Origin: Fidelibacterota bacterium
GTDB taxonomy: Bacteria > Fidelibacterota > Marinisomatia > Marinisomatales > UBA2128
Direction of reading: 5' to 3'
NCBI GenBank assembly: GCA_046861645.1
Contig: JBHHUM010000060.1
Coordinates: forward strand, 1 to 13,091
DNA length: 13,091 nucleotides
Below, in pieces: positions 1 to 12,010 of the stretch. The number at the start of each line of letters is the position of its first letter. Position 1 is the first letter of the stretch. Made by a program: the position numbers and the translations under genes. The notes below the pieces were generated by a model, which worked only from the letters and a program-made list of their open reading frames with translations, did no database searches and was not told where the DNA came from.

Positions 1-875
1 ACATTGGCATCGAATGCCATGAGGTTACTCAGGCGGATTTCCAATTTCTCCATTGTAAAACCAACTATAGATAGAGTACCGGCAGTACCTAAAAGAGCAT
101 AGGCTAATTCCTGACCAGCTTTCGTACCGGACATCTCAAAGATCTTCCATTGATTCGCAGGTGCTCCCATCTTGCCACAGATTTCCTTGACGTGCTTCTT
201 AATATCACGGATATTCATCCCTGTGGTGTTCAGAGTTTGGGATATACCCACCTGCTCCAGTTGATCTAATTTCTCCTGAGCTATGTCCAGCGCAAGCACG
301 TACGCGCCGGATACCTTCGCCAGTTGTACAGCGTAGATGCCTACACCTCCCACACCTATCACTACTGCAAAATCCCCGGCTCGAATTCCACTTTTTATCA
401 TCGCCTGATAGGGTGTCGCTACGGCATCGGCAATAACTGCTAACTCAGCCAGGGTATGGTTCTGAAGGGGTTCCTCAGGAACCTCAATCAGGAAACGGGC
501 AGGAACAATCACATGACTGGCGAAGCCACCATGGAAGTCATTACCAGGCATCTTCTGGTGCTGGCAGATATTGCTTCGATTTTGACGGCACAGGTCGCAA
601 TCGCCGCAGGGAAGTACGGCCGGAATGATGACGGGTTTTCCTGACAGATCTGACGGACCCTCCAGTACAATTCCACTGATTTCATGTCCCAGCGTCAAGG
701 GTAAGTCGTGACGTGTCGGGACATCATAAAACCAGAAACTGAGGTCAGTGTGGCAAACGCCACAACCAGAAACTTTGATTAGGGCATCTCCCTCCTCTAA
801 GGAGGGTAGTGGTCGTTTGGTCAACTTGAAAGATTGACCCTTATTCACCATTTGCCAGGCTGAAATGGTATCCAT
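1..875 (-). CDS. had: 6-hydroxycyclohex-1-ene-1-carbonyl-CoA dehydrogenase (Zn-dependent MDR family); 3' end lies outside the window
   Basis: Hand-translated from ATG at 875; the frame is open to the window edge: MDTISAWQMV...GCGVCHTD...LPLTLGHEISG...PAVLPCGDCDLC...NIC...MPGNDFHGGFASH...LAVIADAVATPYQA...VIGVGGVG...WKIFEMSGTKAGQELAY...VGFTMEKLEIRLSNLMAFDAN. It has catalytic and structural Zn motifs, a Rossmann motif and the RLSNLMAF motif I recall from Had, and lies in a bcr operon. Not in the ORF track. Confidence 0.88.
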   Translation of the reverse strand, partial: MDTISAWQMVNKGQSFKLTKRPLPSLEEGDALIKVSGCGVCHTDLSFWFYDVPTRHDLPLTLGHEISGIVLEGPSDLSGKPVIIPAVLPCGDCDLCRQNRSNICQHQKMPGNDFHGGFASHVIVPARFLIEVPEEPLQNHTLAELAVIADAVATPYQAMIKSGIRAGDFAVVIGVGGVGIYAVQLAKVSGAYVLALDIAQEKLDQLEQVGISQTLNTTGMNIRDIKKHVKEICGKMGAPANQWKIFEMSGTKAGQELAYALLGTAGTLSIVGFTMEKLEIRLSNLMAFDAN

Positions 876-888
876 TATTCTACCTGCT

Positions 889-2139
889 TTATGCCGTCGG
901 ATTTTCGATCAATATTGCGGTACCCTGTCCACCACCGATACAGGCCGAGGCTATCCCATAGCGAGCGTTTCGACGGCGGAGTTCCAGCGCCAGGGTATGA
1001 GTCAGTCTCACTCCTGTCGCTGCCAGAGGGTGTCCGATAGCAATCGCCCCGCCATTAACATTCAGTTTACTTCGATCCAGATGCAATTCTCTCTCCACGG
1101 CAAGAATTTGTGCTCCGAAGGCTTCGTTGACTTCAAAAAGGTCAATATCCTCCATAGTTAAACCGGCTATTGTCAAAGTGTTAAGAATGGCTGAAACAGG
1201 ACCGATACCCATGATTTCGGGCTCGACCCCGGTAGAAGCCGAGGAAATTATCCGTGCCAATGGTTTAATTCCTTTGGTTTTTACCAAGTCTCCAGAGGAT
1301 ATAACGACTGCCGCCGCACCATCCACGATCCCACTGGAGTTACCTGCGGTCTGTACGCCATCTTTCGCAAAGGTGGGACGGAGGGCGGCCAGTTTCTGCC
1401 TGTCAGTGGGACGAATATTTTCGTCCGCATCCAGCATTGCTTTACTTGGTGTTGTTTTATATTTACGTGTTTTTAGAGGATTCATCTCATGGCTTCCCGA
1501 TGCTACAGACACCATTTCCTCCATCAATGTGCCGTCTGTAGTTTTTTCGGCCGCGAGGGCATGTGATCGATAGGCATATTCATCTGCTTCATCTCGGGTA
1601 ATGTTGTACTTCCGGGCCAGGTTTTCTGCAGTTTGTCCCATGGAACAGCTCACAGCAGGATCGTACAGACCTTCCCACAGCATGTCGCCAAAATGGAGCC
1701 CACCCAACCGGTATCCGGTGCGGTTGCCAAAGGAGGCCGTTGGAGCCAGGGTCATATTCTCCGCTCCACCAGCTAAAATGACCTGGGCTTTACTTAGGGT
1801 GATCTGTTCTGCGGCAGTAATAATTGTTTCGAAACCGGAACCACAAATTCTCTGTACGAGCTGGGCCGGGACGCTTTGTGGGATTCCGGTGTAGAGGCCG
1901 ATGTGTCGCGGTAAGTAGATAGCATCGAAACTGGCTTGAATAATGTTAGCAAAGACGACATGTTGAATATCCTTAGGTTCTAAACCCGATCGTTCTATAG
2001 CAGCCTTACTGGCGATGATCCCCAAGTCGGTAGGTGAGATTCTCCCCAGTGTACCACAAAATTTACCAAAGGGAGTCCGCGCTCCTTCCAGGAGATAAAT
2101 ATCGGCGTATAGTTGCCCGAATTGATGTTTAGTGTTCAT
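889..2139 (-). CDS. Acetyl-CoA C-acyltransferase (beta-ketothiolase)
   Basis: Motifs ARTPFGKF, QRICGSG (catalytic Cys), NEAF, GGAIAIGHPLAATG and ACIGGGQG. Overlaps the upstream gene by 11 nt. Confidence 0.95.
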   Translation of the reverse strand: MNTKHQFGQLYADIYLLEGARTPFGKFCGTLGRISPTDLGIIASKAAIERSGLEPKDIQHVVFANIIQASFDAIYLPRHIGLYTGIPQSVPAQLVQRICGSGFETIITAAEQITLSKAQVILAGGAENMTLAPTASFGNRTGYRLGGLHFGDMLWEGLYDPAVSCSMGQTAENLARKYNITRDEADEYAYRSHALAAEKTTDGTLMEEMVSVASGSHEMNPLKTRKYKTTPSKAMLDADENIRPTDRQKLAALRPTFAKDGVQTAGNSSGIVDGAAAVVISSGDLVKTKGIKPLARIISSASTGVEPEIMGIGPVSAILNTLTIAGLTMEDIDLFEVNEAFGAQILAVERELHLDRSKLNVNGGAIAIGHPLAATGVRLTHTLALELRRRNARYGIASACIGGGQGTAILIENPTA

Positions 2140-2935
2140 GTTTGGAAAGGATGTTTATTTCTGGTTCTAAGCTGCCATTATTCCGGGCCAGAGCAGCTGC
2201 ACCCTGAGCGATGACGAATTGAGGATCAGCGCTGACGGTGATCTTTATACCGAGTTCTGCTCCTAAGAGTTCGCCCAGAAAAGGATGGTAAGCGATGACC
2301 CCCCCACAGAGGAATAGAGGTAGACTACTATTTACGGGTAGCTTACAAATTCGATTAACAATGGAAAGATAAATTCCCCTGGCGATTTCTTCGAGGGGTA
2401 CTCCTTTGAATTTCCATCCCATGATTTCTGTCTTGGCAAAAACAGTGCAAAAGCTGTTAATCGTTTTGTCCGTTGTGGTTCGTTGAGCAAAATCATTCAT
2501 CTCCGTGATATCCAATTCAGCCTTTTCAGCAATTTCGGTGATGAAGGCTCCTGTGCCGGCAGAACACTTATCGTTCATGTAGAAATTTCTTACTTCACCA
2601 CGGGGTCCACTCTCAATAATCTTGATGTCTTCTCCGCCTATATCGAGAATTGATTTGTGGATAGGATGCAACACAGAAACTCCTGCAGAAGCACAGACAA
2701 GTTCAGTCTTTTTAATGTTACCCTGATAGCTGTTGCGGCCGTAGCCAGTTGTGCAGGTTTTCTTGATCATATATCTACTTTGGAGGTAATCGATGACATC
2801 ATTGAAAGCTTCACGATGCCGACTGAGTGTAGGAATTACTTTCCTGAAAACTGGATTACCATCCTGATTGATAACTACAAACTTTGTGTAGGAAGAACCG
2901 AGATCAATTCCCAGATAGTATACCGCTGCTGACAC
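2129..2935 (-). CDS. CoA-substrate-specific enzyme activase (HgdC/HadI/FldI-like ASKHA ATPase, [4Fe-4S])
   Basis: Motifs GIDLGSS, TTGYGR, LDIGGED, MNDKCSAGTG, NSFCTVFAKTE (two cluster Cys) and LCGGV. GTG start with AGGGAG upstream. Confidence 0.92.
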   Translation of the reverse strand: MSAAVYYLGIDLGSSYTKFVVINQDGNPVFRKVIPTLSRHREAFNDVIDYLQSRYMIKKTCTTGYGRNSYQGNIKKTELVCASAGVSVLHPIHKSILDIGGEDIKIIESGPRGEVRNFYMNDKCSAGTGAFITEIAEKAELDITEMNDFAQRTTTDKTINSFCTVFAKTEIMGWKFKGVPLEEIARGIYLSIVNRICKLPVNSSLPLFLCGGVIAYHPFLGELLGAELGIKITVSADPQFVIAQGAAALARNNGSLEPEINILSKHEH

Positions 2936-2948
2936 GTAAGCTCGCTCC

Positions 2949-3896
2949 CTATTCTCCTTTATGTTCTAAAAGATTGATCAAAGTCGTAATGGTTTGATTA
3001 ACAGGTGTAGGCAGTGAATGTTTCTCGCCGTAAGCTACGATCCTTCCGTTTAGGTAGTCAATTTCAGTAGGCAGGTTGTTTTCGATATCGATCAACATGG
3101 AGGGTTTATGTCGTCCACCTTTATTCAGGTACTGGATGCAATAGGATAAGAAATCTTCTCCCAGATCAATTCCTTCTGCCCTGGCAATATTAATGGACTC
3201 TTTCAATATTTCTTCTACCAGATTTACCCCCCAACCCGTAGCCATCACACCCTCCATGGTTCGTCGGGAAAGGGCACAAACAGGGGAGAGGGAAGCGTTC
3301 AGAATCGCTTTTTCCCAAGTGTACACTCTGATATCGTCTGGGATTACTGTAGGTAGGTTCACGGAATCGAGCAGAGTAGTAATCTTGGTGGCTATCTCTT
3401 TACCGTGAGAATGTAACGGTGCGACATAATTGGGTGGATTGAAGAAAGTGACGCGAACCGTATTTTTATCTATCATGTTTCCAGCGTAATTGATGACCAT
3501 ACGCAAGGTCACCTTCTCCCCGAAAGTATCAGCCACCTCCATTTCGTTGTCAAGCCCGTTTTGAGCACTCATTACAAAAGTATGCTCACCTTTTATCTCT
3601 GCCAAGTCGTCTATTACCAACTTCAGGTAGGGTGTTTTCACGCTGATAGAGATCAGATCCAGGTCGTAATTGGCGAGTTCCCGGGCCCCGTAACAGATAT
3701 CTGAAACCTGAATATCCTTTTCGATAGTTTGCCTCAAGTGGATACCGGATTTTTTGATCAGGTTGATTTTATCCCGGTCGATATCACAGACAATAACATG
3801 AGCTCCTGCTTCTACAAAATGGGCAGCCAGGGTTGATCCTACTGGACCTAAGCCTATCACAGCTATGCGTAATGGGTTAGAAAATGGTTTACTCAT
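2949..3896 (-). CDS. Ketopantoate reductase (PanE/ApbA) family 2-oxoacid reductase
   Basis: Motifs GLGPVG (Rossmann), SVK, AQNGL, WEKAILNAS and PSMLIDIENNLPTEIDYLNG. The substrate is uncertain in this context, so no gene symbol is given. Confidence 0.9.
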   Translation of the reverse strand: MSKPFSNPLRIAVIGLGPVGSTLAAHFVEAGAHVIVCDIDRDKINLIKKSGIHLRQTIEKDIQVSDICYGARELANYDLDLISISVKTPYLKLVIDDLAEIKGEHTFVMSAQNGLDNEMEVADTFGEKVTLRMVINYAGNMIDKNTVRVTFFNPPNYVAPLHSHGKEIATKITTLLDSVNLPTVIPDDIRVYTWEKAILNASLSPVCALSRRTMEGVMATGWGVNLVEEILKESINIARAEGIDLGEDFLSYCIQYLNKGGRHKPSMLIDIENNLPTEIDYLNGRIVAYGEKHSLPTPVNQTITTLINLLEHKGE

Positions 3897-3897
3897 T

Positions 3898-5106
3898 CTA
3901 AGTCTCCCTGGCTTTAGCAGTCAGAAGTTCAATGAATGTTTCTAATTTTGTTCGTGTCTGTCCTTCTGAAAAGAAACGCAAATCATTTAAATCGCCATCG
4001 ATACTCAAGGTATCAATACCTGTCTCTTTCTGGACTCGTTTGGGAAGTCCAAACCGGCTGTTGGCATTATTGAAACAGGTCTTTGAATCGTGAAAAATCA
4101 CCCCGTCAACTTTGAATTCCTCCAGCATCCTTTTCAACATGGTCAGCTTTGTATTTTCGCCCCGGTTGATGAAAATCTGAGTATAAGCGTAGGCCATGGA
4201 TTCCAAAGGTTTATCAGGATCGAAATCATCGAATACCCAGCTGTTGCAATACGTGGATGCTACTACTGAAGTGTTATACTCAACCAACAGGTCAGCAAAC
4301 CAACGGAGACGACCCCAGATGGGCATCCCCTCCCAATAGAGGCGTGTCCTTTCATCAGGAACAGCGCCTACATTGTTACTTACAGCTTCTTGCAACTCGA
4401 GAAGCAGTTGCTCATAGAAATCGATGCAAACCGGAGTTCCTCGCAGAACTACGATTGGAGCCATCAGAATACATCCGTCGAAAAATGTCAGGGGAGCCGG
4501 GGAATTTTGAGCCGTGCTTAACACTTGTTTCCACAGTTGTGATGCCTTATAGCTTAAGCGGACTGTTTCTACCAACCGCGCTGGATCCATTTTATTGCCG
4601 GTGATCTCCTCTCCAGAGGTAATGAGCCTTTGCAACTGAGTCGTAACATGATTGATATCTGCTTTGGTGATCTCCTCCAGGTAACGGGGGGGGAAAATAC
4701 CTACCACAGGACAATTATATTCTCGTCCAAAAAAGTTGAACCATTCTGCTACTTCCCGGCACTGGTTAGTGTTGAAAACGATGAGGTCTGGTTGTGGGAT
4801 GGCGGGTAGCCCATAGGCACTGGTCAGGGGAGTCTCGTGCAGGAGCCAGGCGCCAATATCTGCGGTCAGATAAGAGCATATTTCACTGTTATAACCGGCC
4901 TGGTGGGCTTTAGGGATGTACTTTTGAGCTGTTCTTGATGCCCCCAGAAGAGCACCATGGTTTTCGGGAAAATATACTTCGAAACCAAGCGCTCTGAGAA
5001 TCTCTGCAGGACCGGCGCTGGTACACCAGGCAATTGGAGATTTCATACCCGTGAAGTACTCTTTCAAAATAACTTTTAAGGCTGATTGTGATTTCAAACG
5101 GGGCAT
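3898..5106 (-). CDS. 2-hydroxyacyl-CoA dehydratase family subunit, alpha type (HgdA/FldB/HadB-like)
   Basis: AWCTSAGPAE...YFPENHGA, GYNSEICSY (C77), NTNQC (C116), HDSKTC (C344) and IDGDLNDLRFFSEGQTRTKLETFIE. This is the three-Cys [4Fe-4S] pattern of the family. Confidence 0.88.
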   Translation of the reverse strand: MPRLKSQSALKVILKEYFTGMKSPIAWCTSAGPAEILRALGFEVYFPENHGALLGASRTAQKYIPKAHQAGYNSEICSYLTADIGAWLLHETPLTSAYGLPAIPQPDLIVFNTNQCREVAEWFNFFGREYNCPVVGIFPPRYLEEITKADINHVTTQLQRLITSGEEITGNKMDPARLVETVRLSYKASQLWKQVLSTAQNSPAPLTFFDGCILMAPIVVLRGTPVCIDFYEQLLLELQEAVSNNVGAVPDERTRLYWEGMPIWGRLRWFADLLVEYNTSVVASTYCNSWVFDDFDPDKPLESMAYAYTQIFINRGENTKLTMLKRMLEEFKVDGVIFHDSKTCFNNANSRFGLPKRVQKETGIDTLSIDGDLNDLRFFSEGQTRTKLETFIELLTAKARET

Positions 5107-5108
5107 CT

Positions 5109-6827
5109 CTACTCCAGGTTGATGACGTATACTTTATCAGATAGCACCATTTCAGAATTGTAAAGGTGCTCGATATTTGCTTTGAAAACCTTCGCAATTG
5201 TATTCGGTGCCAGCTTCATGGAAGGAGTCAGTTCTTCATTTTCGATACTGAGCTCGTAATCGATCAACATGGCTCTTTGGGGCCGAGCATACTTGATATC
5301 AATAGATTTGTTCAGCTCTCGGAGGCAATCGTTTAAACAGACGGAGAAATCTCCCAGATTTTGTGGACACTTGCACCTGCTCTTAAGCTGGGATTCATCA
5401 GGAATTTGTTTGAACATCTCCTTGTTAGGAAACAGGAGGGTGACAGGATAATCCTTTCCACTGCCGGAGACATAAGCATACGAAATATAGGCACAGTCCT
5501 TACCGATGATATTCTCAATTTCAGTCGGAACCACCTTTTCGGCATTGCTAAGTTTAAAAATCCGGTCTTTCCGGCCAATGAGGCGCAATCCATGTTTGGT
5601 TAACTCACCTACATCTCCAGTATAAAACCAACCGTCTTTAGTCAATACCCTATCAGTCTCTTTAGTGTTCTTGTAATAACCGGTCATAATATTGGGTCCT
5701 TTGACCATGATTTCGCCATCATCTGCCAGTTTAAGGGAAATACCCGGTATGGGTTTACCTACAACCCCGGGAGATCGGGGCAGGTTGGGATTGGTTACTG
5801 TGCAACAGGGCGATGTTTCGGTGAGACCCCATCCTTCAATCACAGGAATATTCCGTTCGATGAAAATCTTGGCGATATTCTGTGGCAGGGGTGCTGCAGC
5901 TGTAAAGATAAAGCGCAATTCATTGTGAAAGATCATCTTTTCTATTTCAGTTGATTGAAGCACACGGGTGGCTATCTGTTGATAGATGCGGGGTACGCTG
6001 AAAAATACAGTGGGCAGAACTTGCTGCCAGTTATCCAACAGGATTTCGATGTTTTTTCCGAAACCATGTTCCAAGGAAAGGACGGCACCGTTGGTGATAG
6101 CGGCAAATTTTTCGAAAATGCCACCGAAGCTGTGGTGCCACGGCAGGTAAGAAAGTATTCGATCAGTGTTACTAAGCTTCCATAATACTTTCATGGCTGC
6201 CTGTTGGGATAGAATGTTAGCATGTGTCAATTGCACACATTTGGGTCGACCCATTGTCCCGGAAGTGTACATCATCAGAGCAATGGTCCCGGGATCTAAT
6301 TCTTCACCTGATATAGCGGTTCCCATCCCAGTAGATGATAGCAGCTCACTGAATGGTATCAGGTTAGTAAACTTGTCTGAACTGATGGGGGAGAAGTGGA
6401 TGATCCACTCATATTTACGTGGATTTTCCAATTTATTAAATTGCTCCTGATCAGCAACGACGACCAGACGAGGTTCACAAAAATTGGTTAACCTGTTAGC
6501 TTGGTTGGCAGGATAGCCAGCAAAGATTGGAACAGAAATGGCACCCATGGACATTACTGCCATGTCCAACACTAGCATATCCTGACAGTTCCTGGATAAA
6601 ATGGCTACCCGCTCCCCTTTTCTCAAGTGCAGGTCAGTCAGTGAACTTTGGAGAGCAATAACGCTCTGAGTAAAATCCTGCCAGAGCAAGGGAATATATT
6701 TGCCGTCCTGAGATTCCTGAAAAATTGGTTTAAGGGAAAATTTCCTTGAGTTGGTATTCAGCATTTCTGCCAGGTTACGGGGGAAATCTGGCAGGGGCTG
6801 ATTGCTGTGAAGGATATGACGAGTCAT
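5109..6827 (-). CDS. AMP-forming acyl-CoA synthetase (long-chain acyl-CoA ligase / feruloyl-CoA synthetase-like)
   Basis: Motifs YTSGTMGRPK (P-loop), YLPWHHSFGG, EGWGLTETSP, TGDVG, GRKDRIFK and LTPSMKL. ATGA overlap with bcrD at 6824-6827. Confidence 0.92.
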   Translation of the reverse strand: MTRHILHSNQPLPDFPRNLAEMLNTNSRKFSLKPIFQESQDGKYIPLLWQDFTQSVIALQSSLTDLHLRKGERVAILSRNCQDMLVLDMAVMSMGAISVPIFAGYPANQANRLTNFCEPRLVVVADQEQFNKLENPRKYEWIIHFSPISSDKFTNLIPFSELLSSTGMGTAISGEELDPGTIALMMYTSGTMGRPKCVQLTHANILSQQAAMKVLWKLSNTDRILSYLPWHHSFGGIFEKFAAITNGAVLSLEHGFGKNIEILLDNWQQVLPTVFFSVPRIYQQIATRVLQSTEIEKMIFHNELRFIFTAAAPLPQNIAKIFIERNIPVIEGWGLTETSPCCTVTNPNLPRSPGVVGKPIPGISLKLADDGEIMVKGPNIMTGYYKNTKETDRVLTKDGWFYTGDVGELTKHGLRLIGRKDRIFKLSNAEKVVPTEIENIIGKDCAYISYAYVSGSGKDYPVTLLFPNKEMFKQIPDESQLKSRCKCPQNLGDFSVCLNDCLRELNKSIDIKYARPQRAMLIDYELSIENEELTPSMKLAPNTIAKVFKANIEHLYNSEMVLSDKVYVINLE

Positions 6828-7645
6828 GCTTGAGCTTCCAGTAGTTTAAAGTGCCTGTGGCCACCCCAAAGAGCAGCCCCGATAGCGCCCGCCGCGTAAC
6901 ATTTTTCTGACGCGAAGATTTCCAGGGCCATATTCCGTTCCACTTTCAATTCGTTAATGGCAGCTATTAAGCCCCTGTCTTGAGCCATACCTCCAGTTAG
7001 AGCTACAGGTGATTCCACTTTAAGTTTCCTGAGGAGCTTTATGATCCTCCTGGCAATGGAAAGGTGAATACCTTTAACAATATCTGGAGTCGGAATGCCC
7101 TGTGAAACCATATTTATTACATCTGTCTCGGCCAGCACGGCACAGATGCCGCTGGTTTTTGCTGGATCTTTTGATTTCAGCGAGAGTGGTCCTACTTCGC
7201 CAATCGTGACCCCGAGATATCGGGTGATGTTTTCCAGGAACTGTCCGGAACCGGAAGCACACTGTCCAGTCATAGCGTAATTCTTTACCCGGGCCCCTTT
7301 CTCCAGAGAGATGACCCGACTGAATAACGCCCCCATATCCACTACGGTACGAACATCAGGATGAAAATGGTAAGCACCCCGGGCGTGAGTCGTCATGCTG
7401 TAAAAGTGTCCCCGCTTTTTAGGTACCAGTTCTCCTTCACCGGTGGAAGCCACATATAACAGATCCTCATAGGAGAGATTATGCTGCTCCAGTAAAATTT
7501 GTATTGTCTTCTGGATGAGTATGGTAGGATTTCGTTTTCTTATTTTTTCATTAATAATAGCGATGATCCTTGAATTATTACCATAGTCTATAAGGGCATA
7601 TTTAATAAAGCTGCTACCCACATCTATTCCCAGAGTGTAGCTCAT
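6824..7645 (-). CDS. bcrD: Benzoyl-CoA reductase (class I) subunit D
   Basis: Motifs GIDVGS, ASTGEGE, HFYSMTTHARGA, MTGQCASGSGQFLENITRYLG and SGICAVLAETDVINMVS, typical of BcrD/BadG. TGATG coupling to bcrA at 7643-7647. Confidence 0.93.
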   Translation of the reverse strand: MSYTLGIDVGSSFIKYALIDYGNNSRIIAIINEKIRKRNPTILIQKTIQILLEQHNLSYEDLLYVASTGEGELVPKKRGHFYSMTTHARGAYHFHPDVRTVVDMGALFSRVISLEKGARVKNYAMTGQCASGSGQFLENITRYLGVTIGEVGPLSLKSKDPAKTSGICAVLAETDVINMVSQGIPTPDIVKGIHLSIARRIIKLLRKLKVESPVALTGGMAQDRGLIAAINELKVERNMALEIFASEKCYAAGAIGAALWGGHRHFKLLEAQA

Positions 7646-8943
7646 CAGGAGTTCTTTCTTCTGGCGCTGAAGAGGGCAGCACCCAGAGCCCCCATGAAAA
7701 TGGAGTCCGGGTGGTTATTAATTTTCAGTGTACCATAGTTTTCATGGACCATTTGCTTCACATACTTGACTACGGCAGTATTACGGGCAACTCCACCAGT
7801 GAAAGTGAATTCATTACGGACACCTCCTGAGCGAGCAAGAAGAGCAAAGGCTCTCAGGACAATGGCTTTATGGAGTCCAGCCAACACATTTTCCTTCTTT
7901 TCACCAAGATTTAGATATTCTCTGAGTTCTGCTCCGGCGAATACGGTGCAAGTGCTGCAAATGTTGGCTTCGTAATCTGCTTCCATGGCAATAGGTCCCA
8001 GTTCTCCAACGCTGATATTCATTTCGTCCGCAATGTAGCCCAGGTATCGACCGCAACCGGCAGCACAACGGTCATTCATCTGGAAACTGGTTACCAAACC
8101 GTGTTTATCAACCTGGATCGCCTTTGTATCCTGCCCACCAATATCCAGTACTGTTCTTGTCAGGGGAAAACAGGCGTGAGCACCTAAAGCGTGACACAGT
8201 ATCTCTGACTTGATGTGTTGTTCTTCAAAGGGGAGCAATTGCCGACCATAGCCAGTACCCACATAATCAGCTGGTTCGAGAGACAGCTCTGAAACCTGAT
8301 TCAAAGGTTCTTCCAGTACTTTGCATTGCTCGGACATTTCCTCAGGCAAAAGGGTAATGGCTTCTTTTACCAGCGGTCCAAAGTCTGGATGTAAGGCTTC
8401 ATTTTCCACCGGTGTAATGGAGCGATCATACAGAGCAATTAGATGTTCGTACAGGGTAATATCTTGTTCTTGGATCTGGTGCATATATACGCTGCTGAAA
8501 AGCTCTCTGAAGAATTCGGAAGAGGTGGATACTTCACTATTAAAAAATCTATCCCTGATTTTATCCAGGATAGTAGCGGTGAGTGAAGTAACGATGGGGC
8601 CAATTTTTTCCCTGAGTGCGATATCAGGAATAGACTGGCTATTGGCAGCCATGGTGGCCATCAGTTTATGGAATCGTTGTTGAAATTCCAGGAAGTGGAA
8701 TCTATTTTCCAGGTGAGGGAATATCTCGTCCCAGTTAACCCCATTGGCAGCATCTTCCTTCAGTTTATTATAGAGGAGAGAGAAGCGGGCATTGAACTCT
8801 GCTTCAATGCGGGCTATATCAGCAGCCACTTCATAATTTGAGCGGGTATTGGTAATGCCCCGGCCTATGATTTTTCCCTGACGGTTGGTGATGACAGCTT
8901 TAGAAGTCGTGGAACCTAAATCGATGCCCAGATATACTTTCAT
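7645..8943 (-). CDS. bcrA: Benzoyl-CoA reductase (class I) subunit A
   Basis: GIDLGSTTSKA and GRGITNTRSNY, then a long insertion typical of Thauera-type BcrA/BadF, then GTGYGR, SEILCH, LDIGGQDTKAIQVD, FQMNDRCAAGCGRYLGYIADEM and STCTVFAGAELR. Confidence 0.94.
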   Translation of the reverse strand: MKVYLGIDLGSTTSKAVITNRQGKIIGRGITNTRSNYEVAADIARIEAEFNARFSLLYNKLKEDAANGVNWDEIFPHLENRFHFLEFQQRFHKLMATMAANSQSIPDIALREKIGPIVTSLTATILDKIRDRFFNSEVSTSSEFFRELFSSVYMHQIQEQDITLYEHLIALYDRSITPVENEALHPDFGPLVKEAITLLPEEMSEQCKVLEEPLNQVSELSLEPADYVGTGYGRQLLPFEEQHIKSEILCHALGAHACFPLTRTVLDIGGQDTKAIQVDKHGLVTSFQMNDRCAAGCGRYLGYIADEMNISVGELGPIAMEADYEANICSTCTVFAGAELREYLNLGEKKENVLAGLHKAIVLRAFALLARSGGVRNEFTFTGGVARNTAVVKYVKQMVHENYGTLKINNHPDSIFMGALGAALFSARRKNS

Positions 8944-8983: not shown

Positions 8984-10288
8984 TCACACCAGAACCTCAT
9001 CTGACAATATTTCGTCATCTACTTTGATGGATTGTCGCTGTTCGAGCATCTGGAAAAAGGAATCAAGCCTGTTTTTAATATTGGAATAAGAGTAGTACCG
9101 GGGATCTACCAGATCAGTTTCGATAAAACCGACGGGGATTCCCAGGCGATCTTCAAGCTCTCGCATTATCACTAACTGTCCAGCGGAGAAGGAGTTGCAA
9201 CTTTTAATGGAATTTACCAGCAAACCATCTGCGTGGTAGCGCTTTATGAATCGCTCCAGAAGATCGATACGCTGAGGAAGATTACGGTTGGTATAGCAAC
9301 CCAGACAGTATTCCGCCATGCTACTGAGTGGATTGTCTGCAGAATGTCTGAAACCGTCATCATAGACACCACCAACCCGGGTGTAAGTTGACCCTACGAA
9401 AACAGCTCCCTGGTCATAAAAGATCTTCCAGAAATTCCTGAAATGTGTCCAGTTAGGTGGGCCCTCGACAACGAGGCGAAATCGCTCGTTTTCCAAGTAA
9501 CCATCGGGAGTGATAGGGCCGAGATTGTTGTGGATTCGGTAGGTCACCTCTTTTGCTAATTCTCGGTAGTATTCAACACAACTCTCATTGCCCCGAAATG
9601 CGGTGAAGATGGGTCCAATATAATAAACTCCACCAAAAAACGCATCGATGGGAGAAGGCTGGTTTTGAGCGGAGTCGAATATTTCAATTAACAGGTCTTC
9701 TGCCTGAGCTGATAGATCCATTTTTTCAGCAAGTTTCTCGAGATGAAATTTTTTACCACTTACCTTCTCCATTTTGGGGATCACTTCCTGGATAAGCTGG
9801 TTCACGATATAATCAACCGCATGGGGTTCTATTTTACCTGATTCCTGATAGGGTATATGTAACATGGCAATTTCAGAATGGGGGTAAAGGTGCTTCAGGT
9901 TCTCGAACCACTTCATAAAGACAAAACAGCCGGTATAGCTCAGGAGGAGGAGGTCGGGGTCAGGGAGCTGTTGGCCGGTGGGACCGATATTGCCCTGCAG
10001 CATCATGCCTATATCGCACTTGACGTAGGAACAGACATCCTCAGAATAGCCCAGGTCCTCTGCCTCGCGAATGTAGTCTCTCGATTTTTTGCGCATACCG
10101 GACTGGAGAGCATTGATTTCCGGGTAGACCGGGAGCATGTCGAAGGTATAGATGAGTTCCGTGAGGTTGCCGGGGACGAAGGTATAAACTACTTTTTTAC
10201 CTGTTTCTCGAACCTGGGAGAGATCCATGAAATGCTCGGCTAACATCTGCTTTTGCTTGATCATGCTGTTCTCTTTTTGAATTTCCAT
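8984..10288 (-). CDS. bcrB: Benzoyl-CoA reductase (class I) subunit B
   Basis: Motifs YTFVPGNLTEL, PEINALQSGMRK, SEDVCSYVKCDIG, LLLLSYTGCFVFMKWFE, VEGPPNWT, NSIKSCNSFSAGQ and ETDLVDPRY. I prefer the ATG at 10288 (2 nt after the bcrC stop) over the track's GTG at 10300. Confidence 0.93.
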   Translation of the reverse strand: MEIQKENSMIKQKQMLAEHFMDLSQVRETGKKVVYTFVPGNLTELIYTFDMLPVYPEINALQSGMRKKSRDYIREAEDLGYSEDVCSYVKCDIGMMLQGNIGPTGQQLPDPDLLLLSYTGCFVFMKWFENLKHLYPHSEIAMLHIPYQESGKIEPHAVDYIVNQLIQEVIPKMEKVSGKKFHLEKLAEKMDLSAQAEDLLIEIFDSAQNQPSPIDAFFGGVYYIGPIFTAFRGNESCVEYYRELAKEVTYRIHNNLGPITPDGYLENERFRLVVEGPPNWTHFRNFWKIFYDQGAVFVGSTYTRVGGVYDDGFRHSADNPLSSMAEYCLGCYTNRNLPQRIDLLERFIKRYHADGLLVNSIKSCNSFSAGQLVIMRELEDRLGIPVGFIETDLVDPRYYSYSNIKNRLDSFFQMLEQRQSIKVDDEILSDEVLV

Positions 10289-10290
10289 GA

Positions 10291-11475
10291 TTATTCCCAC
10301 AGTTTGATCATATCGGCGAAAGTTCCAGTCTGCTCTTTGATGACATGGAACTGTCCAAGATTCTCATGGTATTGAAAGCTGGAATGTTTGATTTTGTGTC
10401 GGTCCATGGCCTTTTCCAGGAGGGGACGATCCAGCAGGGCTGGGTCACAGAAGCTGGGTGCACAGAAGATCACTCCGTCAGCATGGCGATTCTTTACCTG
10501 AGCAGCCAGGAGGTCTCCTTTTGCTTTTTGTCCCTCATAGACAGCAGAGGAGAAAGTACTCAGGGTCAGGTAACTGTCCACCAGTGCAGCTACAGGATCG
10601 TCTGTGTCTTCCGGAATATTTTCAGCAAACCAGTTAAGTCCCAATTGCCAATCATCCTCGACAATGTAACAACCAGCATTTTCAATAGTCTTGATCAATC
10701 CCAGAGGAGGTTGCTCACAGAATGAACCGGAGATTACCACCCGGATACGGTCTTCTTCTTCGGCAGCAACCCTGTCTGCCAGCTGGAGAACAGTTTCTAT
10801 AAAGTAGTTGTGATCTTCCACAGACATAATGGTACCGGCTCTCTGGATCAGATAATAATCAGTAGCTGCTATCTTTTGGGGCTGCTCGGACCGGAATTTA
10901 TTAAGTTTTTTTAGGAGGAACCGGTTACGATTGTAAAGGGCGATGGAACGGTTCAACTCATCTTTATCTGGAACCTTGGCGTTCAAAGCCTTGAGGTCCT
11001 TCCTGAGGCGCTCTAATTCAGCAAGGTAGAACTTACCACCCACCTCTGGATTGAAATCCTGAGGGAAGTCGAGGTAACGGATTAGTTTTTTAGGAAAGCG
11101 GATTCTGAAGATTCCAGACAGATTGCGGATAACATCACAGATGGCGGGAAAGATAAAACCATCGAAATCATCTAAATGGTTGTTCAGTGCAAGCTCTACC
11201 ACAGTTCTGGGAAGGTGACAGATGTAAGATTGGAAATAGGCATCACCCCGTACGGAGGGTATCCTGTCTCCAGCTCCAAAGATGCCTACGGGCAGCATTC
11301 CAGCCGCATGGATAATCTCCCGGGGGATATAAATGGGCAGATAACCGATAATCTTCCGAGAAGGGTCACCCTTCTTCCATTGGCTGGCATAGGTAAAGGA
11401 AAGATCATCGAACAACTTCCGTGCGAAGGCTACTGCATCAGTATAGTTGTTGAAGCGAATCTCACTCTTGTCCAT
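10291..11475 (-). CDS. bcrC: Benzoyl-CoA reductase (class I) subunit C
   Basis: Motifs PIYIPREIIHAAG, GDAYFQSYICHLPR, FPAICDVIRNLSG, GSFCEQPP, PSFCDPALLD and GQFHVIKEQTGTFADMIKLW. Overlaps the marR end by 14 nt. Confidence 0.93.
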   Translation of the reverse strand: MDKSEIRFNNYTDAVAFARKLFDDLSFTYASQWKKGDPSRKIIGYLPIYIPREIIHAAGMLPVGIFGAGDRIPSVRGDAYFQSYICHLPRTVVELALNNHLDDFDGFIFPAICDVIRNLSGIFRIRFPKKLIRYLDFPQDFNPEVGGKFYLAELERLRKDLKALNAKVPDKDELNRSIALYNRNRFLLKKLNKFRSEQPQKIAATDYYLIQRAGTIMSVEDHNYFIETVLQLADRVAAEEEDRIRVVISGSFCEQPPLGLIKTIENAGCYIVEDDWQLGLNWFAENIPEDTDDPVAALVDSYLTLSTFSSAVYEGQKAKGDLLAAQVKNRHADGVIFCAPSFCDPALLDRPLLEKAMDRHKIKHSSFQYHENLGQFHVIKEQTGTFADMIKLWE

Positions 11476-11893
11476 TAGCCGCGTTCCAAATCTGGTTTAG
11501 AGTATGGCGGAATGTTTCCAGTTCCTCCGGAGAAAGGGGTTTTACCAGTTGTTGATCCACAGTGGTCGCGATTTCGTCTAGACTCTGGAGTAGATTAGAC
11601 CCTTTTTCAGTCAGGAATAAACGAATTACTCTTCTATCGGTAGTCGTTCTCCTGCGTTCGACGAGATTATCTTTTTCCAGCCGGTCGGCCAATCCAGTTA
11701 TGGCCGGTTTATCCAGAAACACCCGTTTACCCACTTCAGAAAGAGATAGTCCATCTTCTTTGGCCAGGGTGCTGAGTACAGTGTGCTGTGAGGTGGTTAA
11801 ACCATACTGGGACAACTTAGCGTCAAGAGCCTTTTTCATCGTCCGAGCAGTACGGACGACCAGAAAACCAGTACTCTCTTCCAAAGTTGTCAT
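11462..11893 (-). CDS. MarR family transcriptional regulator
   Basis: YGLTTSQHTVL...LSLSEVG...LDKPAITGLADRLEKDNLVERR...DRRVIRLFLTEKG (winged helix with DRR motif). The ATG at 11893 gives 143 aa, a normal MarR size; the ATG at 11941 is an alternative start. The track's TTG at 12010 coincides with the predicted -35 box. Confidence 0.92.
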   Translation of the reverse strand: MTTLEESTGFLVVRTARTMKKALDAKLSQYGLTTSQHTVLSTLAKEDGLSLSEVGKRVFLDKPAITGLADRLEKDNLVERRRTTTDRRVIRLFLTEKGSNLLQSLDEIATTVDQQLVKPLSPEELETFRHTLNQIWNAANGQE

Positions 11894-11981
11894 ATCTTGT
11901 TGGCTTTCATTTAGGTATTCAGTTCTGCGATAATTGGGCATTGCTGATAACCAGTCAGGCTCTATTTTATCGGTTTTAATA

Positions 11982-12010
11982 AATATAGTTAACATATTAA
12001 CTATTTGCAA
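11982..12010 (-). promoter_or_regulatory. Sigma70-type promoter of the marR-bcr operon
   Basis: The minus strand reads TTGCAA (12010-12005), a 17-nt spacer, then TATATT (11987-11982), with AT-rich sequence upstream. Confidence 0.7.
11985..12004. promoter_or_regulatory. Palindromic operator, probable MarR binding site
   Basis: ATAGTTAA-cata-TTAACTAT has perfect 8-bp inverted arms and covers the promoter spacer and half of the -10 box. Confidence 0.72.

What the first reader, a model, noticed from the sequence alone, without database searches (positions are those of the whole stretch)
889..6827. Five-gene insert in the bcr operon: candidate phenylpyruvate/phenyllactate to cinnamoyl-CoA to benzoyl-CoA feeder pathway
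Seen: ligase, dehydratase alpha subunit, PanE-like reductase, activase and thiolase sit between bcrD and had, with junctions of -4, +2, +1, +13, -11 and +13 nt, so they are probably co-transcribed with BCR. Known: (R)-phenyllactyl-CoA dehydratase (FldBC with activator FldI) makes cinnamoyl-CoA in clostridial Stickland fermentation, where a CoA-transferase activates the substrate and the product is reduced. Some PanE-family enzymes are D-2-hydroxyacid dehydrogenases. Inference: here PanE reduces an aryl-pyruvate to the (R)-aryl-lactate, an ATP-dependent ligase activates it, and the radical dehydratase gives cinnamoyl-CoA. Beta-oxidation ending with the thiolase would then release benzoyl-CoA for BCR. 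This would link phenylalanine catabolism to ring reduction without phenylacetate or phenylglyoxylate. I do not know this layout from the model Thauera, Azoarcus or Rhodopseudomonas clusters. The required hydratase and 3-hydroxyacyl-CoA dehydrogenase are not in the window.
Basis: partly seen in the sequence, partly recalled or inferred. Interest (0 to 1): 0.85.

Follow-up and report, generated by a model that had tools for sequence, protein, structure and literature searches.

The report
Radical dehydratase module inside benzoyl-CoA operon
Genes for a one-subunit radical dehydratase, its ATP-driven activator, a keto-acid reductase and a CoA ligase sit inside an operon for anaerobic aromatic-ring breakdown in many uncultured microbes, and probably feed phenylalanine- or tyrosine-derived acids into that pathway by a route nobody has yet tested.

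Summary
On the minus strand the window carries marR-bcrCBAD, then a ligase, a single HGD-D protein ("HgdX"), a PanE-like reductase, an activase, a thiolase and a cut had. The junctions are as stated.

It is not a local insert. Of 80 loci fetched with HgdX, 38 have the same ligase directly upstream and 45 have PanE directly downstream. Twenty show the whole string bcrC to activase. In relatives, oah, a dch-like hydratase, a dehydrogenase-hydratase fusion, an SDR and a second thiolase follow had.

HgdX tracks the ring-cleavage gene oah. In the window's phylum, 20 of 23 HgdX-positive genomes have oah. In a second phylum, 33 of 38 do.

HgdX is alpha-like only. It keeps three cluster cysteines, has no beta partner in the genome, and is modelled as a homodimer.

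PanE is not housekeeping here, and PanE-HgdX and PanE-activase fusions exist.

A 2016 supplementary table for Desulfococcus multivorans labels a like-sized trio as phenyllactate dehydratase alpha, activator and phenylpyruvate reductase. It was never assayed.

The aryl-lactate route to cinnamoyl-CoA and benzoyl-CoA is the best reading (about 0.55). It is unproven.

The parts
11462..12010 (-). MarR-family regulator at the head of the operon
   Evidence: PF01047 53.7 bits. A MarR gene precedes bcrC in 12 related loci.
10291..11475 (-). bcrC, benzoyl-CoA reductase subunit C (Thauera type)
   Evidence: TIGR02263 440.2 bits, cut-off 421.15.
8984..10300 (-). bcrB, benzoyl-CoA reductase subunit B
   Evidence: TIGR02260 641.4 bits, cut-off 486.55.
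7645..8943 (-). bcrA-like ATPase subunit
   Evidence: TIGR02259 457.8 bits, below the cut-off of 578; PF01869 243.8 bits.
6824..7645 (-). bcrD-like ATPase subunit
   Evidence: TIGR02261 278.3 bits, below the cut-off of 312.85; TIGR00241 151.9 bits.
5109..6827 (-). ligA: AMP-forming acyl-CoA ligase of the long-chain/FadD11-like type, 572 aa. Proposed to activate the aryl-C3 2-hydroxy acid.
   Evidence: PF00501 and PF23562. No NCBIfam equivalog is reached; the best is PRK12582 at 219.6 bits against a cut-off of 777. It lies directly upstream of HgdX in 38 of 75 loci with an upstream ORF. The overlap with bcrD is 4 nt.
3898..5106 (-). HgdX (working name): alpha-type, single-subunit member of the 2-hydroxyacyl-CoA dehydratase / benzoyl-CoA reductase family, 402 aa
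   Evidence: PF06050 217 bits. HadB alpha 212 bits, BcrB 151 bits. The family profile scores 224.5 bits on HadB alpha and 22.2 on HadC beta. C77, C116 and C344 are invariant in 48 sequences and align with cysteines of HadB. Homodimer model 0.83 against a best control of 0.00.
2949..3896 (-). PanE-like NAD(P)H oxidoreductase, 315 aa. Proposed 2-oxo acid / (R)-2-hydroxy acid reductase.
   Evidence: TIGR00745 171.5 bits, cut-off 141.35. It is the only such gene in the genome. The family is found in 25 of 201 genomes of the phylum, 22 of them HgdX-positive.
2129..2935 (-). Activase: ATP-dependent electron-transferring activator of the HgdC/HadI family, 268 aa
   Evidence: TIGR00241 163.1 bits, cut-off 125.4. 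PDB matches score almost equally: DCCP activator 127.9 bits, HadI 125.4, HgdC 125.3, MbdQ 125.1.
889..2139 (-). Thiolase (BktB-like), 416 aa. Proposed benzoylacetyl-CoA thiolase, or else 3-oxopimelyl-CoA thiolase.
   Evidence: TIGR01930 400.9 bits. It lies between the activase and had in 15 loci and is missing there in 10.
3..875 (-). [quoted passage not shown]
   Evidence: TIGR03201 358.2 bits, cut-off 338.65, from 291 of about 349 residues.

Best explanation
The four genes ligase, HgdX, PanE-like and activase form one module, with the thiolase as an optional fifth. The module turns an aromatic 2-oxo or 2-hydroxy acid into an enoyl-CoA that is shortened to benzoyl-CoA for the reductase encoded upstream.

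**Proposed flow (every step is inferred).**
1. A transaminase encoded elsewhere makes phenylpyruvate or 4-hydroxyphenylpyruvate.
2. The PanE-like enzyme reduces it with NAD(P)H to the (R)-aryl-lactate.
3. The AMP-forming ligase makes the CoA ester.
4. The activase, reduced by ferredoxin and driven by ATP, injects one electron into the [4Fe-4S] cluster of an HgdX homodimer.
5. HgdX removes the alpha-hydroxyl through a ketyl radical, as known 2-hydroxyacyl-CoA dehydratases do. The product is cinnamoyl-CoA or 4-coumaroyl-CoA.
6. A hydratase, a 3-hydroxyacyl-CoA dehydrogenase and a thiolase yield acetyl-CoA and benzoyl-CoA or 4-hydroxybenzoyl-CoA. The window holds only the thiolase. Relatives hold a dch-like ECH, a 660-aa dehydrogenase-hydratase fusion and an SDR after had and oah.
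7. BcrCBAD, Dch, Had and Oah then open the ring.

**Shown here:** gene identities, the conserved layout, genome-level coupling to oah, the alpha-only make-up of HgdX, and gene fusions.

**Not shown:** the substrate, the direction of flow, and which acid the ligase activates.
For: 1. **The layout is conserved.** Of 80 loci fetched with HgdX, ligA-HgdX occurs in 38, HgdX-PanE (or the PanE-activase fusion) in 45, and the full bcrC-to-activase string in 20. By record title these come from Marinimicrobia/Fidelibacterota, Zixibacteria, Bacteroidota, Ignavibacteria, Acidobacteriota, Alphaproteobacteria-labelled MAGs, Eisenbacteria and Lentisphaeria.
2. **The module keeps company with different reductases.** These are the Thauera type, the bzd type (L041 BzdN 463.4 bits, cut-off 453.8) and a third BCR-like set (L004).
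3. **Genome-level coupling to oah.** In the window's phylum, 23 of 201 genomes are HgdX-positive, 22 are oah-positive and 20 are both. In the phylum of G005, 38 carry HgdX at 50% identity or more, 55 carry oah and 33 carry both (the split by identity is my own count). All 5 genomes whose HgdX locus lacked had and oah carry a true oah elsewhere.
4. **All parts of a 2-hydroxy-acid route are present and co-vary.**
   - PanE occurs in 25 of 201 genomes, 22 of them HgdX-positive.
   - PanE-HgdX fusions account for nearly all of the 103 longer proteins listed, and two were confirmed by Pfam.
   - PanE-activase fusions occur in 5 loci.
   - One GlcD-CCG-HgdX fusion exists, and a GlcD-CCG D-2-hydroxy-acid dehydrogenase stands in PanE's place in 8 loci.
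5. **A CoA-activating enzyme of one of three unrelated kinds** (ligA, a 526-aa ligase, or an ADP-forming synthetase) lies in 59 of the 80 loci. This fits activation of a free acid.
6. **Aromatic company.**
   - 4-hydroxybenzoyl-CoA-reductase-like genes are in 21 loci, and in three of them (L031, L032, L037) they sit between PanE and the activase.
   - A HisC-like aminotransferase lies between two PanE genes in 4 loci.
   - Indolepyruvate:ferredoxin oxidoreductase genes are in 3 loci and in L088.
[quoted passage not shown] Beside them are Hbd5, a 680-aa dehydrogenase-hydratase fusion and a thiolase. Section 9, read in full, makes four points:
   - The ligase, Hbd5, the hydratase and the thiolase are formed specifically on phenylacetate and phenylpyruvate.
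   - padB and padEFGHI are missing.
   - The route to benzoyl-CoA is unclear.
   - Phenyllactate supports growth (data not shown there).

   A paralogous fusion plus thiolase serves cinnamate degradation in the same organism.
Against: - No assay exists for any member of this family.
- The cluster holds only one ligase, and no canonical benzoate-CoA ligase (TIGR02262 over cut-off) was found in 0 of 5 HgdX-positive genomes. ligA may therefore simply be the benzoate ligase, which would leave aryl-lactate without an activating enzyme.
- Ten loci have only a dch-like hydratase, one SDR and one thiolase after the module (for example L004). The side-chain enzymes would then have to be shared or encoded elsewhere.
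- GlcD-CCG enzymes usually oxidise 2-hydroxy acids. That suits phenyllactate to phenylpyruvate, which is what the 2016 paper's text says, or the rival below.
- 20 of 22 oah-positive genomes in the phylum have HgdX. That looks more like a core part of the pathway than a side feeder.
- Known phenyllactate dehydratase is FldABC with a CoA-transferase and two different subunits (as cited in the passage). Neither feature is present here.
- I had no sequence of Dmul_24850-70, so their homology to the window's proteins rests on size, order and label only. The paper's Fig. 3 is not held, so I do not know whether those three proteins were detected.
Confidence: 0.55

Rival explanations
1. Reverse hydroxyglutarate shunt. 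In this reading HgdX hydrates glutaconyl-CoA, made from the glutaryl-CoA of the lower benzoyl-CoA pathway, to (R)-2-hydroxyglutaryl-CoA. The CoA is then removed by an ADP-forming synthetase or by the ligase running backwards. PanE or GlcD-CCG oxidises 2-hydroxyglutarate to 2-oxoglutarate. A 2-oxoglutarate:ferredoxin oxidoreductase then supplies the two low-potential electrons that the reductase needs per ring. The forward direction, glutamate to glutaconyl-CoA, is a variant of the same idea.
For: - HgdX is near-universal among oah-positive genomes of the phylum (20 of 22), which suits a core step.
- GlcD-CCG has the domain make-up of the D-2-hydroxyglutarate dehydrogenase YdiJ (NF049975, 213.9 bits, though glcD scores 392.8), and its usual direction is oxidative.
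- ADP-forming synthetases lie beside HgdX in 8 loci.
- Two sets of 2-oxoacid:ferredoxin oxidoreductase genes and an NfnB-like gene lie directly upstream of HgdX in L085. OFOR genes are also present in L047.
- No OAD_beta gene, the membrane subunit of glutaconyl-CoA decarboxylase, was found in 0 of 5 HgdX-positive genomes.
- The best PDB matches of ligA are oxalate- and malonate-CoA ligases, though only by a small margin.
- PanE-HgdX fusions would join consecutive steps if the dehydrogenase acts right after the hydratase.
Against: - In most loci the enzyme beside HgdX is an AMP-forming ligase (38 ligA), which normally works towards the thioester.
- Oxidising a 2-hydroxy acid with NAD(P)+ through a PanE-type enzyme is uphill (general thermodynamics, recalled).
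- ligA is of the long-chain/hydrophobic-acid type.
- The aminotransferase, IOR and 4-hydroxybenzoyl-CoA-reductase company, and the D. multivorans induction by phenylpyruvate, point to aromatic acids.
- No Acd-type non-decarboxylating glutaryl-CoA dehydrogenase over its cut-off was found in 0 of 5 genomes.
- Model degraders manage without HgdX (recalled).
Confidence: 0.12
2. ligA is only the pathway's benzoate or 4-hydroxybenzoate-CoA ligase. HgdX, the activase and PanE then act on some other CoA ester of the benzoyl-CoA pathway. One example would be an ATP-primed reductive dehydroxylation or dearomatisation of a substituted benzoyl-CoA, followed by reduction of a keto intermediate by PanE.
For: - There is a single ligase per cluster and no canonical benzoate-CoA ligase in 0 of 5 genomes.
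- In L085 and in D. multivorans two CoA-activating genes stand side by side, so one may serve benzoate.
- HgdX also resembles the catalytic subunits of class I reductases: MbdO 164 bits and BzdO 123 bits with the family profile.
- G088 keeps a divergent HGD gene, ligA and PanE but no activase, next to two reductase-type ATPase genes.
Against: - HgdX is closer to the dehydratase alpha subunit than to reductase subunits (224.5 against 164 bits; 212 against 151 bits).
- Its activase is a single gene, as in dehydratases that need only catalytic ATP.
- The PanE family is known for 2-oxo acids (family name; substrate knowledge recalled).
- The replacement of PanE by a GlcD-type 2-hydroxy-acid dehydrogenase is hard to fit to a ring ketone.
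Confidence: 0.15
3. The module degrades a non-aromatic 2-hydroxy acid, such as 2-hydroxyisocaproate from leucine. It is merely co-regulated with the aromatic genes in peptide-degrading organisms.
For: The best solved relative is the 2-hydroxyisocaproyl-CoA dehydratase alpha subunit. PanE-family D-2-hydroxy-acid dehydrogenases are known to take branched 2-oxo acids (recalled).
Against: - Coupling to oah holds in two phyla, and in genomes where the genes are far apart.
- The module sits inside the bcr-had operon with overlapping or near-touching reading frames.
- 4-hydroxybenzoyl-CoA-reductase-like genes lie inside the module in three loci.
Confidence: 0.08

Closest known systems
(R)-phenyllactate dehydratase FldABC with initiator FldI of Clostridium sporogenes (Dickert et al. 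2002, as cited in the passage read; details recalled)
   Same: HGD-D-family radical dehydratase with a separate ATP-dependent activator. The proposed substrate (phenyllactyl-CoA) and product (cinnamoyl-CoA) are the same, and a 2-oxo acid reductase lies upstream.
   Different: Here there is one alpha-like subunit only, modelled as a homodimer. A ligase or an ADP-forming synthetase replaces the FldA CoA-transferase. The reductase is of the PanE family. The product would be oxidised to benzoyl-CoA, not reduced to phenylpropionate. The genes sit in a benzoyl-CoA operon.
(R)-2-hydroxyisocaproyl-CoA dehydratase HadBC with HadI of Clostridioides difficile (PDB 3o3m, 4eht)
   Same: It is the best solved relative. 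HadB alpha scores 164 bits with the single sequence and 224.5 bits with the family profile. Three cysteines align. The activase matches HadI at 125.4 bits.
   Different: There is no HadC-like beta subunit (22.2 bits only with the profile; no such gene in the genome). NF052455 scores 212 bits against a cut-off of 750, so HgdX is not an equivalog.
Dmul_24830-24900 of Desulfococcus multivorans (Dorries et al. 2016, PMC5109826; section 9 and Table S1 read)
   Same: The cluster has ligases and a single 416-aa 'R-phenyllactate dehydratase subunit alpha'. It also has a 269-aa 'activator' and a 319-aa 'putative phenylpyruvate reductase'. Beside them are a dehydrogenase-hydratase fusion and a thiolase, and the whole lies between reductase genes and dch/oah. 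This is the same parts list as in the window's relatives.
   Different: The organism uses a class II (Bam) reductase, and its cluster also carries iorAB and a TRAP transporter. The names are predictions and nothing was assayed. The paper's text speaks of converting phenyllactate to phenylpyruvate, not of a cinnamoyl-CoA route. Homology to the window's genes was not checked by sequence here.
Known anaerobic phenylalanine route via phenylacetyl-CoA and phenylglyoxylate (Pad pathway of Thauera and Aromatoleum; as summarised in section 9 read)
   Same: It starts from phenylpyruvate and ends at benzoyl-CoA.
   Different: It uses decarboxylation, a molybdenum alpha-oxidase (PadBCD) and a phenylglyoxylate oxidoreductase (PadEFGHI). 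It has no radical dehydratase and no beta-oxidation of a C3 side chain.
Double-cubane cluster proteins with their activator (PDB 7yyl, 6eno)
   Same: They are a homodimeric member of the same superfamily with a single-gene activator. The window's activase matches that activator best (127.9 bits).
   Different: HgdX matches the DCCP only weakly (about 23 bits with the single sequence, 41.9 with the profile; NF040772 67.8 bits against a cut-off of 350).

Membership tests
2-hydroxyacyl-CoA dehydratases (HgdAB, HadBC, FldBC, LcdAB) | Catalytic subunit homologous to the HGD-D alpha subunit | tested here: met
   PF06050 217 bits. HadB alpha 164 bits with the single sequence and 224.5 bits with the profile.
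2-hydroxyacyl-CoA dehydratases (HgdAB, HadBC, FldBC, LcdAB) | Three cysteines that hold the [4Fe-4S] cluster | tested here: met
   C77, C116 and C344 align with cysteines of HadB and are invariant in 48 sequences. That these are the cluster ligands in HadB is recalled, not tested.
2-hydroxyacyl-CoA dehydratases (HgdAB, HadBC, FldBC, LcdAB) | Heterodimer of distinct alpha and beta subunits | tested here: not met
   The genome has only three HGD-D genes: bcrB, bcrC and HgdX. The profile scores 22.2 bits on HadC beta. The longer forms are PanE or GlcD fusions, not alpha-beta fusions. Homodimer model 0.83 against 0.00; the pass may be from memory of solved relatives.
2-hydroxyacyl-CoA dehydratases (HgdAB, HadBC, FldBC, LcdAB) | Dedicated ATP-dependent activator of the HgdC/HadI/FldI family | tested here: met
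   TIGR00241 163.1 bits against 125.4. HadI 125.4 bits and HgdC 125.3 bits. An ATPase-family gene lies in 65 of 80 loci. That family also takes in the reductase's own BcrA/BcrD ATPases, so the count is not of activases alone.
2-hydroxyacyl-CoA dehydratases (HgdAB, HadBC, FldBC, LcdAB) | Substrate supplied by a CoA-transferase | tested here: not met
   The annotated ORFs of the window and loci include no CoA-transferase. Instead ligA, a 526-aa ligase or an ADP-forming synthetase is present in 59 of 80 loci.
2-hydroxyacyl-CoA dehydratases (HgdAB, HadBC, FldBC, LcdAB) | Reversible syn-elimination of water from an (R)-2-hydroxyacyl-CoA | not testable with these tools
   Needs an anaerobic enzyme assay.
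Class I benzoyl-CoA reductase, Thauera type (BcrCBAD) | Four subunits that reach the equivalog models | tested here: inconclusive
   BcrC 440.2 against 421.15 and BcrB 641.4 against 486.55 pass. BcrA 457.8 against 578 and BcrD 278.3 against 312.85 do not.
Ketopantoate reductase PanE (housekeeping, pantothenate synthesis) | Membership of the ApbA/PanE sequence family | tested here: met
   TIGR00745 (subfamily model) 171.5 bits against 141.35.
Ketopantoate reductase PanE (housekeeping, pantothenate synthesis) | Distribution expected of a housekeeping gene | tested here: not met
   The family was found in 25 of 201 genomes of the phylum at E <= 1e-30. Of these, 22 are HgdX-positive, with the gene beside HgdX. 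Fusions to HgdX and to the activase exist.
Double-cubane cluster proteins | Sequence match to the DCCP model | tested here: not met
   NF040772 67.8 bits against a cut-off of 350.

The most novel reading that the evidence does not exclude
The module is not a feeder. It is a self-supply line for the reductase. HgdX would hydrate glutaconyl-CoA from the opened ring, at the alpha carbon. PanE or GlcD-CCG, with a CoA-releasing enzyme, would turn the product into 2-oxoglutarate. A 2-oxoglutarate:ferredoxin oxidoreductase would then return exactly two low-potential electrons per ring to the ATP-dependent benzoyl-CoA reductase. That would be the hydroxyglutarate pathway of glutamate fermentation run backwards, and a new answer to where class I reductases outside the model denitrifiers get their electrons.
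Probability: 0.1. Interest if true: 0.9.

Novelty: new variant of a known kind. Interest (0 to 1): 0.68.

Why it matters
The known anaerobic route from phenylalanine to benzoyl-CoA needs PadBCD and PadEFGHI. Sulfate reducers such as D. multivorans lack padB and padEFGHI, and the authors call their route unclear. A 2026 paper on an anaerobic benzene degrader needs just such a step and marks it as a yet unassigned dehydratase.

The module described here offers a concrete and widespread candidate. It was found in 33 of 55 oah-positive genomes in one phylum sample and in 20 of 22 in another. By record title it also occurs in Asgard archaea, Chloroflexi, Bacteroidota and others.

It would also be the first alpha-only, probably homodimeric, 2-hydroxyacyl-CoA dehydratase. 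It is served by a ligase and a PanE-type reductase, and is sometimes fused to that reductase.

The question can be tested directly with a cultured organism and four recombinant proteins.

Tried and rejected
- **Expression.** No RNA holder is listed for window 600-8000. Four DNA runs of one study hold the stretch.
- **Signals in the window.** Promoter and terminator scans gave numbers close to shuffled controls (31 against 23.1 +/- 5.3; 13 against 12.1 +/- 3.1). This gives no evidence for or against internal signals. No inverted repeat of 10 nt or more was found in 11950-12720.
- **Own genome.** oah was not found with TIGR03200. This says little, because the contig ends inside had.
- **Searches meant to separate the readings, all left open.**
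  - OAD_beta: 0 of 5 genomes.
  - Acd-type glutaryl-CoA dehydrogenase over its cut-off: 0 of 5.
  - Canonical benzoate-CoA ligase over its cut-off: 0 of 5.
- **The two oah-positive genomes scored HgdX-negative.** One (G088) has a 34%-identical HGD gene with ligA and PanE beside had. The other (G155) has a contig that ends in had.
- **Literature searches.**
  - 'benzoyl-CoA' + 'Marinimicrobia' + 'dehydratase': 0 papers.
  - 'benzoyl-CoA reductase' + 'Marinimicrobia': 8 papers, seen as listings only.
  - The phenyllactate dehydratase combinations brought in print only the 2016 annotation and the 2026 hypothesis.
  - A first supplement search with locus tags written 'C24850' found nothing. The table writes Dmul_24850.
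- **High-G+C loci.** My simple ORF picker fails on them (for example L086 and L087), so counts are lower bounds there.
- **Chance neighbourhood.** Rejected on the counts above.
- **Recent horizontal insertion.** Rejected on composition and on the breadth of the layout.

Full report
**What is in the window.** The window is a whole 13,091-base contig of a 2.5-Mb metagenome-assembled genome (94% complete, 43% G+C). Eleven genes lie head to tail on the minus strand:

| Gene | Coordinates |
|---|---|
| marR | 11462-12010 |
| bcrC | 10291-11475 |
| bcrB | 8984-10300 |
| bcrA | 7645-8943 |
| bcrD | 6824-7645 |
| ligase (ligA) | 5109-6827 |
| single HGD-D protein (HgdX, my working name) | 3898-5106 |
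| PanE-like reductase | 2949-3896 |
| activase | 2129-2935 |
| thiolase | 889-2139 |
| had (cut by the contig end) | 3-875 |

- BcrC and BcrB pass the Thauera-type equivalog cut-offs. BcrA and BcrD fall below theirs.
- had passes TIGR03201 although it is truncated.
- The activase passes TIGR00241.
- The PanE-like protein passes the apbA_panE subfamily model.
- The ligase reaches no equivalog and looks like the long-chain/FadD11 type.

Promoter and terminator scans are at the level of shuffled sequence. The G+C content of the five genes does not stand out.

**The layout is conserved, not a local insert.** A scan of one genome per species with HgdX returned 80 loci. I called ORFs crudely and labelled them by BLAST against the window's proteins. 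I also clustered all 1,140 ORFs without reference to the window.

Counts over the 80 loci:

| Feature | Loci |
|---|---|
| ligA directly upstream of HgdX | 38 (of 75 with an upstream ORF) |
| PanE or a PanE-activase fusion directly downstream | 45 |
| ligA-HgdX-PanE-activase | 27 |
| Whole string from bcrC to the activase | 20 |
| Thiolase between activase and had | 15 |
| Activase directly followed by had | 10 |

By record title the loci come from these groups:
- Marinimicrobia/Fidelibacterota, Zixibacteria, Bacteroidota, Ignavibacteria and Acidobacteriota
- Alphaproteobacteria-labelled MAGs, Eisenbacteria and Lentisphaeria
- At 50-54% identity and in other layouts: Chloroflexi, Asgard archaea, Thermoplasmata, Thermodesulfobacteriota, Aminicenantes and Gemmatimonadaceae

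What the window cannot show can be read in these relatives. After had come oah (over its cut-off) and a dch-like hydratase (about 230 bits, below the cut-off of 292.5).

**The module travels with different reductases.**
- The window has the Thauera type.
- L003-L007 have another BCR-like set, about 31% identical and with two short ATPases, but the same ligA-HgdX-PanE-activase-had.
- L041 has a bzd-type BzdN over its cut-off.
- Chloroflexi loci have true had and oah beside HgdX and the activase, with no class I reductase in the stretch fetched.

**Genome-level coupling.**

| Sample | Genomes | HgdX+ | oah+ | Both |
|---|---|---|---|---|
| Window's phylum | 201 | 23 | 22 | 20 |
| Phylum of G005 (record title: Thermodesulfobacteriota) | 201 | 38 (at 50% identity or more) | 55 | 33 |

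The exceptions in the window's phylum are these:
- Three genomes are HgdX-only. They are the window's own genome, whose contig breaks in had, and two genomes with distant hits (36% and 49% identity).
- Two genomes are oah-only. One carries a 34%-identical HGD gene with ligA and PanE beside had. The other has a contig that ends in had.

In the second phylum, 5 genomes have HgdX only and 22 have oah only. The split by identity is my own count from the tables. A further set of 35-40% paralogs exists.

All 5 genomes whose HgdX locus showed no had or oah have a true oah elsewhere. Related genomes are not independent, so these are counts and not tests.

**HgdX itself.**
- It is alpha-like. NCBIfam gives HadB alpha 212 bits, BcrB 151 and BzdO 98.
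- A profile of 48 family members scores 224.5 bits on HadB alpha, 164 on MbdO, 123 on BzdO, 42 on a double-cubane protein and only 22 on HadC beta.
- C77, C116 and C344 align with cysteines of HadB and are invariant. C287, R117 and H50 are also invariant.
- The genome has just three HGD-D genes, all in this window, so there is no beta subunit.
- A search among longer proteins found no alpha-beta fusion. Of the 103 longer proteins listed, nearly all carry precomputed PanE domains next to HGD-D, and one carries GlcD, Fe-S and CCG domains. Pfam confirmed PanE at the N-terminus in two cases, and confirmed the GlcD-CCG-HGD protein.
- Two copies of HgdX are modelled as a symmetric dimer. The score is 0.83 (runs 0.83, 0.83, 0.80) against a best control of 0.00. 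The partner's pLDDT is at least 93, and 98% of contacts are shared between runs. In the tool's calibration the mark was reached by 20 of 30 solved homodimers and 1 of 23 solved monomers.
- The interface lies around the cluster cysteines. Because related complexes are solved, the pass may reflect likeness only.

**The reductase and the CoA-activating enzyme.**
- The PanE-like gene is the only one of its family in the genome.
- The family is rare in the phylum. It was found in 25 of 201 genomes, 22 of which are HgdX-positive, with the gene beside HgdX. It is therefore not the ordinary ketopantoate reductase there.
- Five loci fuse PanE to the activase.
- In eight loci a GlcD-Fe-S-CCG protein, a flavin D-2-hydroxy-acid dehydrogenase type, stands directly upstream of HgdX and no PanE is present.
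- Three unrelated CoA-activating enzymes take turns near HgdX: ligA (40 loci), a 526-aa ligase (11) and an ADP-forming synthetase (8). In all, 59 of 80 loci have at least one.

The simplest common denominator is a 2-oxo/2-hydroxy acid interconversion, CoA activation, and a radical enzyme acting on the 2-hydroxyacyl-CoA.

**Company that points to aromatic amino acids.**
- 4-hydroxybenzoyl-CoA-reductase-like molybdenum enzymes (810-845 bits, below the cut-off of 994.55) are in 21 loci. In three of these they lie between PanE and the activase.
- A HisC-like aminotransferase sits between two PanE genes in four loci.
- Indolepyruvate:ferredoxin oxidoreductase genes occur in three loci and in L088.
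- A Gemmatimonadaceae locus reads molybdenum enzyme, thiolase, hydratase, SDR, hydratase, PanE-HGD fusion, HgdX.

**What is in print.** In the 2016 D. multivorans paper I read section 9 in full, Table S1 in the supplement and further passages.

The table's 'phenylacetate, phenylpyruvate' block lists the following:
- Hbd5, a 680-aa dehydrogenase-hydratase fusion, a thiolase, a TRAP transporter and two ligases
[quoted passage not shown] - an ACT protein and iorAB

The block lies between the bam genes and dch/oah.

The text makes four points. The ligase, Hbd5, the hydratase and the thiolase are formed specifically on phenylacetate and phenylpyruvate. padB and padEFGHI are absent. The way to benzoyl-CoA is unclear. 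Phenyllactate supports growth.

A paralogous fusion plus thiolase serves cinnamate. The paper does not propose the cinnamoyl-CoA route for phenylpyruvate, and nothing was assayed.

A 2026 paper, of which I read passages only, draws exactly this route as a hypothesis for a benzene degrader. Its dehydratase is marked as unassigned. The paper notes a 'singular gene' about 30% identical to FldB.

My searches found nothing else. The library holds open-access papers and preprints only.

**Most likely mechanism (confidence 0.55).** The proposed steps are these:
1. The PanE-like enzyme reduces an arylpyruvate to the (R)-aryl-lactate.
2. ligA makes the thioester.
3. The activase primes an HgdX dimer with one ATP-driven electron.
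4. HgdX eliminates water to give cinnamoyl-CoA or 4-coumaroyl-CoA.
5. A hydratase, a dehydrogenase and a thiolase release benzoyl-CoA or 4-hydroxybenzoyl-CoA.
6. The reductase and Dch, Had and Oah do the rest.

The gene identities, layout, coupling, alpha-only make-up and fusions are shown. The substrate and the direction of flow are inferred.

**Rivals.**
- *A reverse hydroxyglutarate shunt (0.12).* It would run from glutaconyl-CoA to 2-oxoglutarate and feed the reductase with electrons. The near-universal coupling to oah favours it, and so do the oxidative habit of GlcD-CCG and the ADP-forming synthetases. Further support comes from 2-oxoacid:ferredoxin oxidoreductase genes beside HgdX in L085 and L047 and from no OAD_beta in 0 of 5 genomes. 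The AMP-forming ligases, the PanE energetics and the aromatic company count against it.
- *ligA as a plain benzoate ligase (0.15).* HgdX would then act on another CoA ester.
- *A non-aromatic 2-hydroxy acid (0.08).*
- *Chance neighbourhood.* Excluded by the counts.

**Limits.** All relatives but the D. multivorans record are metagenome bins. My ORF calling is crude and fails at high G+C. Clusters were drawn at 35% identity. No RNA data were found. No named reference sequences of HgdA, FldB or Dmul_24850 were at hand for a tree.

Noticed in passing
P0121-P0222; L078:6887-9169; L048:11197-12975; P0223: Gene fusions tie the module together. About a hundred 750-785-aa proteins carry PanE at the N-terminus and an HgdX-like domain at the C-terminus (35-50% identical to HgdX). 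By source names they come from Gemmatimonadota, Acidobacteria, Planctomycetota and Myxococcota. PanE-activase fusions of 592 aa occur in 5 loci. One 1322-aa protein joins GlcD, Fe-S, CCG and HGD domains.
   Followed up: partly
L078:6887-11227: In a Gemmatimonadaceae locus a PanE-HGD fusion (39% identical to HgdX) is followed by an unfused HgdX (51% identical). The enzyme there may be a pair of two alpha-like proteins. Six genomes of the G005 phylum sample also carry both a form about 52% identical and a form 36-40% identical.
   Followed up: no
L003-L007, e.g. L004:3942-8283: This is a third kind of BCR-like gene set. Its C and B subunits are about 31% identical to the window's and fall below both the Bcr and Bzd model cut-offs. 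It has two 267-269-aa ATPases and an 85-86-aa ORF with no family match. The same ligA-HgdX-PanE-activase-had follows.
   Followed up: partly
L082 (G088:C55) 9000-14703: This is a variant without an activase. Two reductase-type ATPase genes, an 82-aa ORF, a 404-aa HGD gene only 34% identical to HgdX, ligA, PanE and had follow one another. The HGD protein may borrow the reductase's ATPases.
   Followed up: partly
L031, L032, L037: XdhB-like and 4-hydroxybenzoyl-CoA-reductase-alpha-like genes are inserted between PanE and the activase. The alpha-like proteins score 810-845 bits on TIGR03194, below its cut-off of 994.55, so their substrate may differ from 4-hydroxybenzoyl-CoA.
   Followed up: no
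L085 (G170:C28) 112-7793 in locus coordinates: An NfnB-like gene and two successive sets of 2-oxoacid:ferredoxin oxidoreductase genes (alpha, beta, gamma) lie directly upstream of HgdX-activase-ACD-ligase-PanE-had-oah-dch. They are a possible electron supply for the reductase.
   Followed up: partly
window 12011-12683: A 670-base A+T-rich spacer (G+C about 0.33-0.37 in the profile) separates marR from a divergent TPR-repeat gene (12684-13091, cut by the contig end). No inverted repeat of 10 nt or more was found in it.
   Followed up: partly
L002:14968-15531: In the closest relative (84% identical HgdX), a REP-associated tyrosine transposase gene follows oah, where other loci have the dch-like gene.
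   Followed up: no
G104, G017, G120, G170, G001: In none of the five HgdX- and oah-positive genomes searched did I find an OAD_beta gene. I also found no Acd-type glutaryl-CoA dehydrogenase and no canonical benzoate-CoA ligase over their cut-offs. How these organisms get from glutaryl-CoA to crotonyl-CoA is open.
   Followed up: partly
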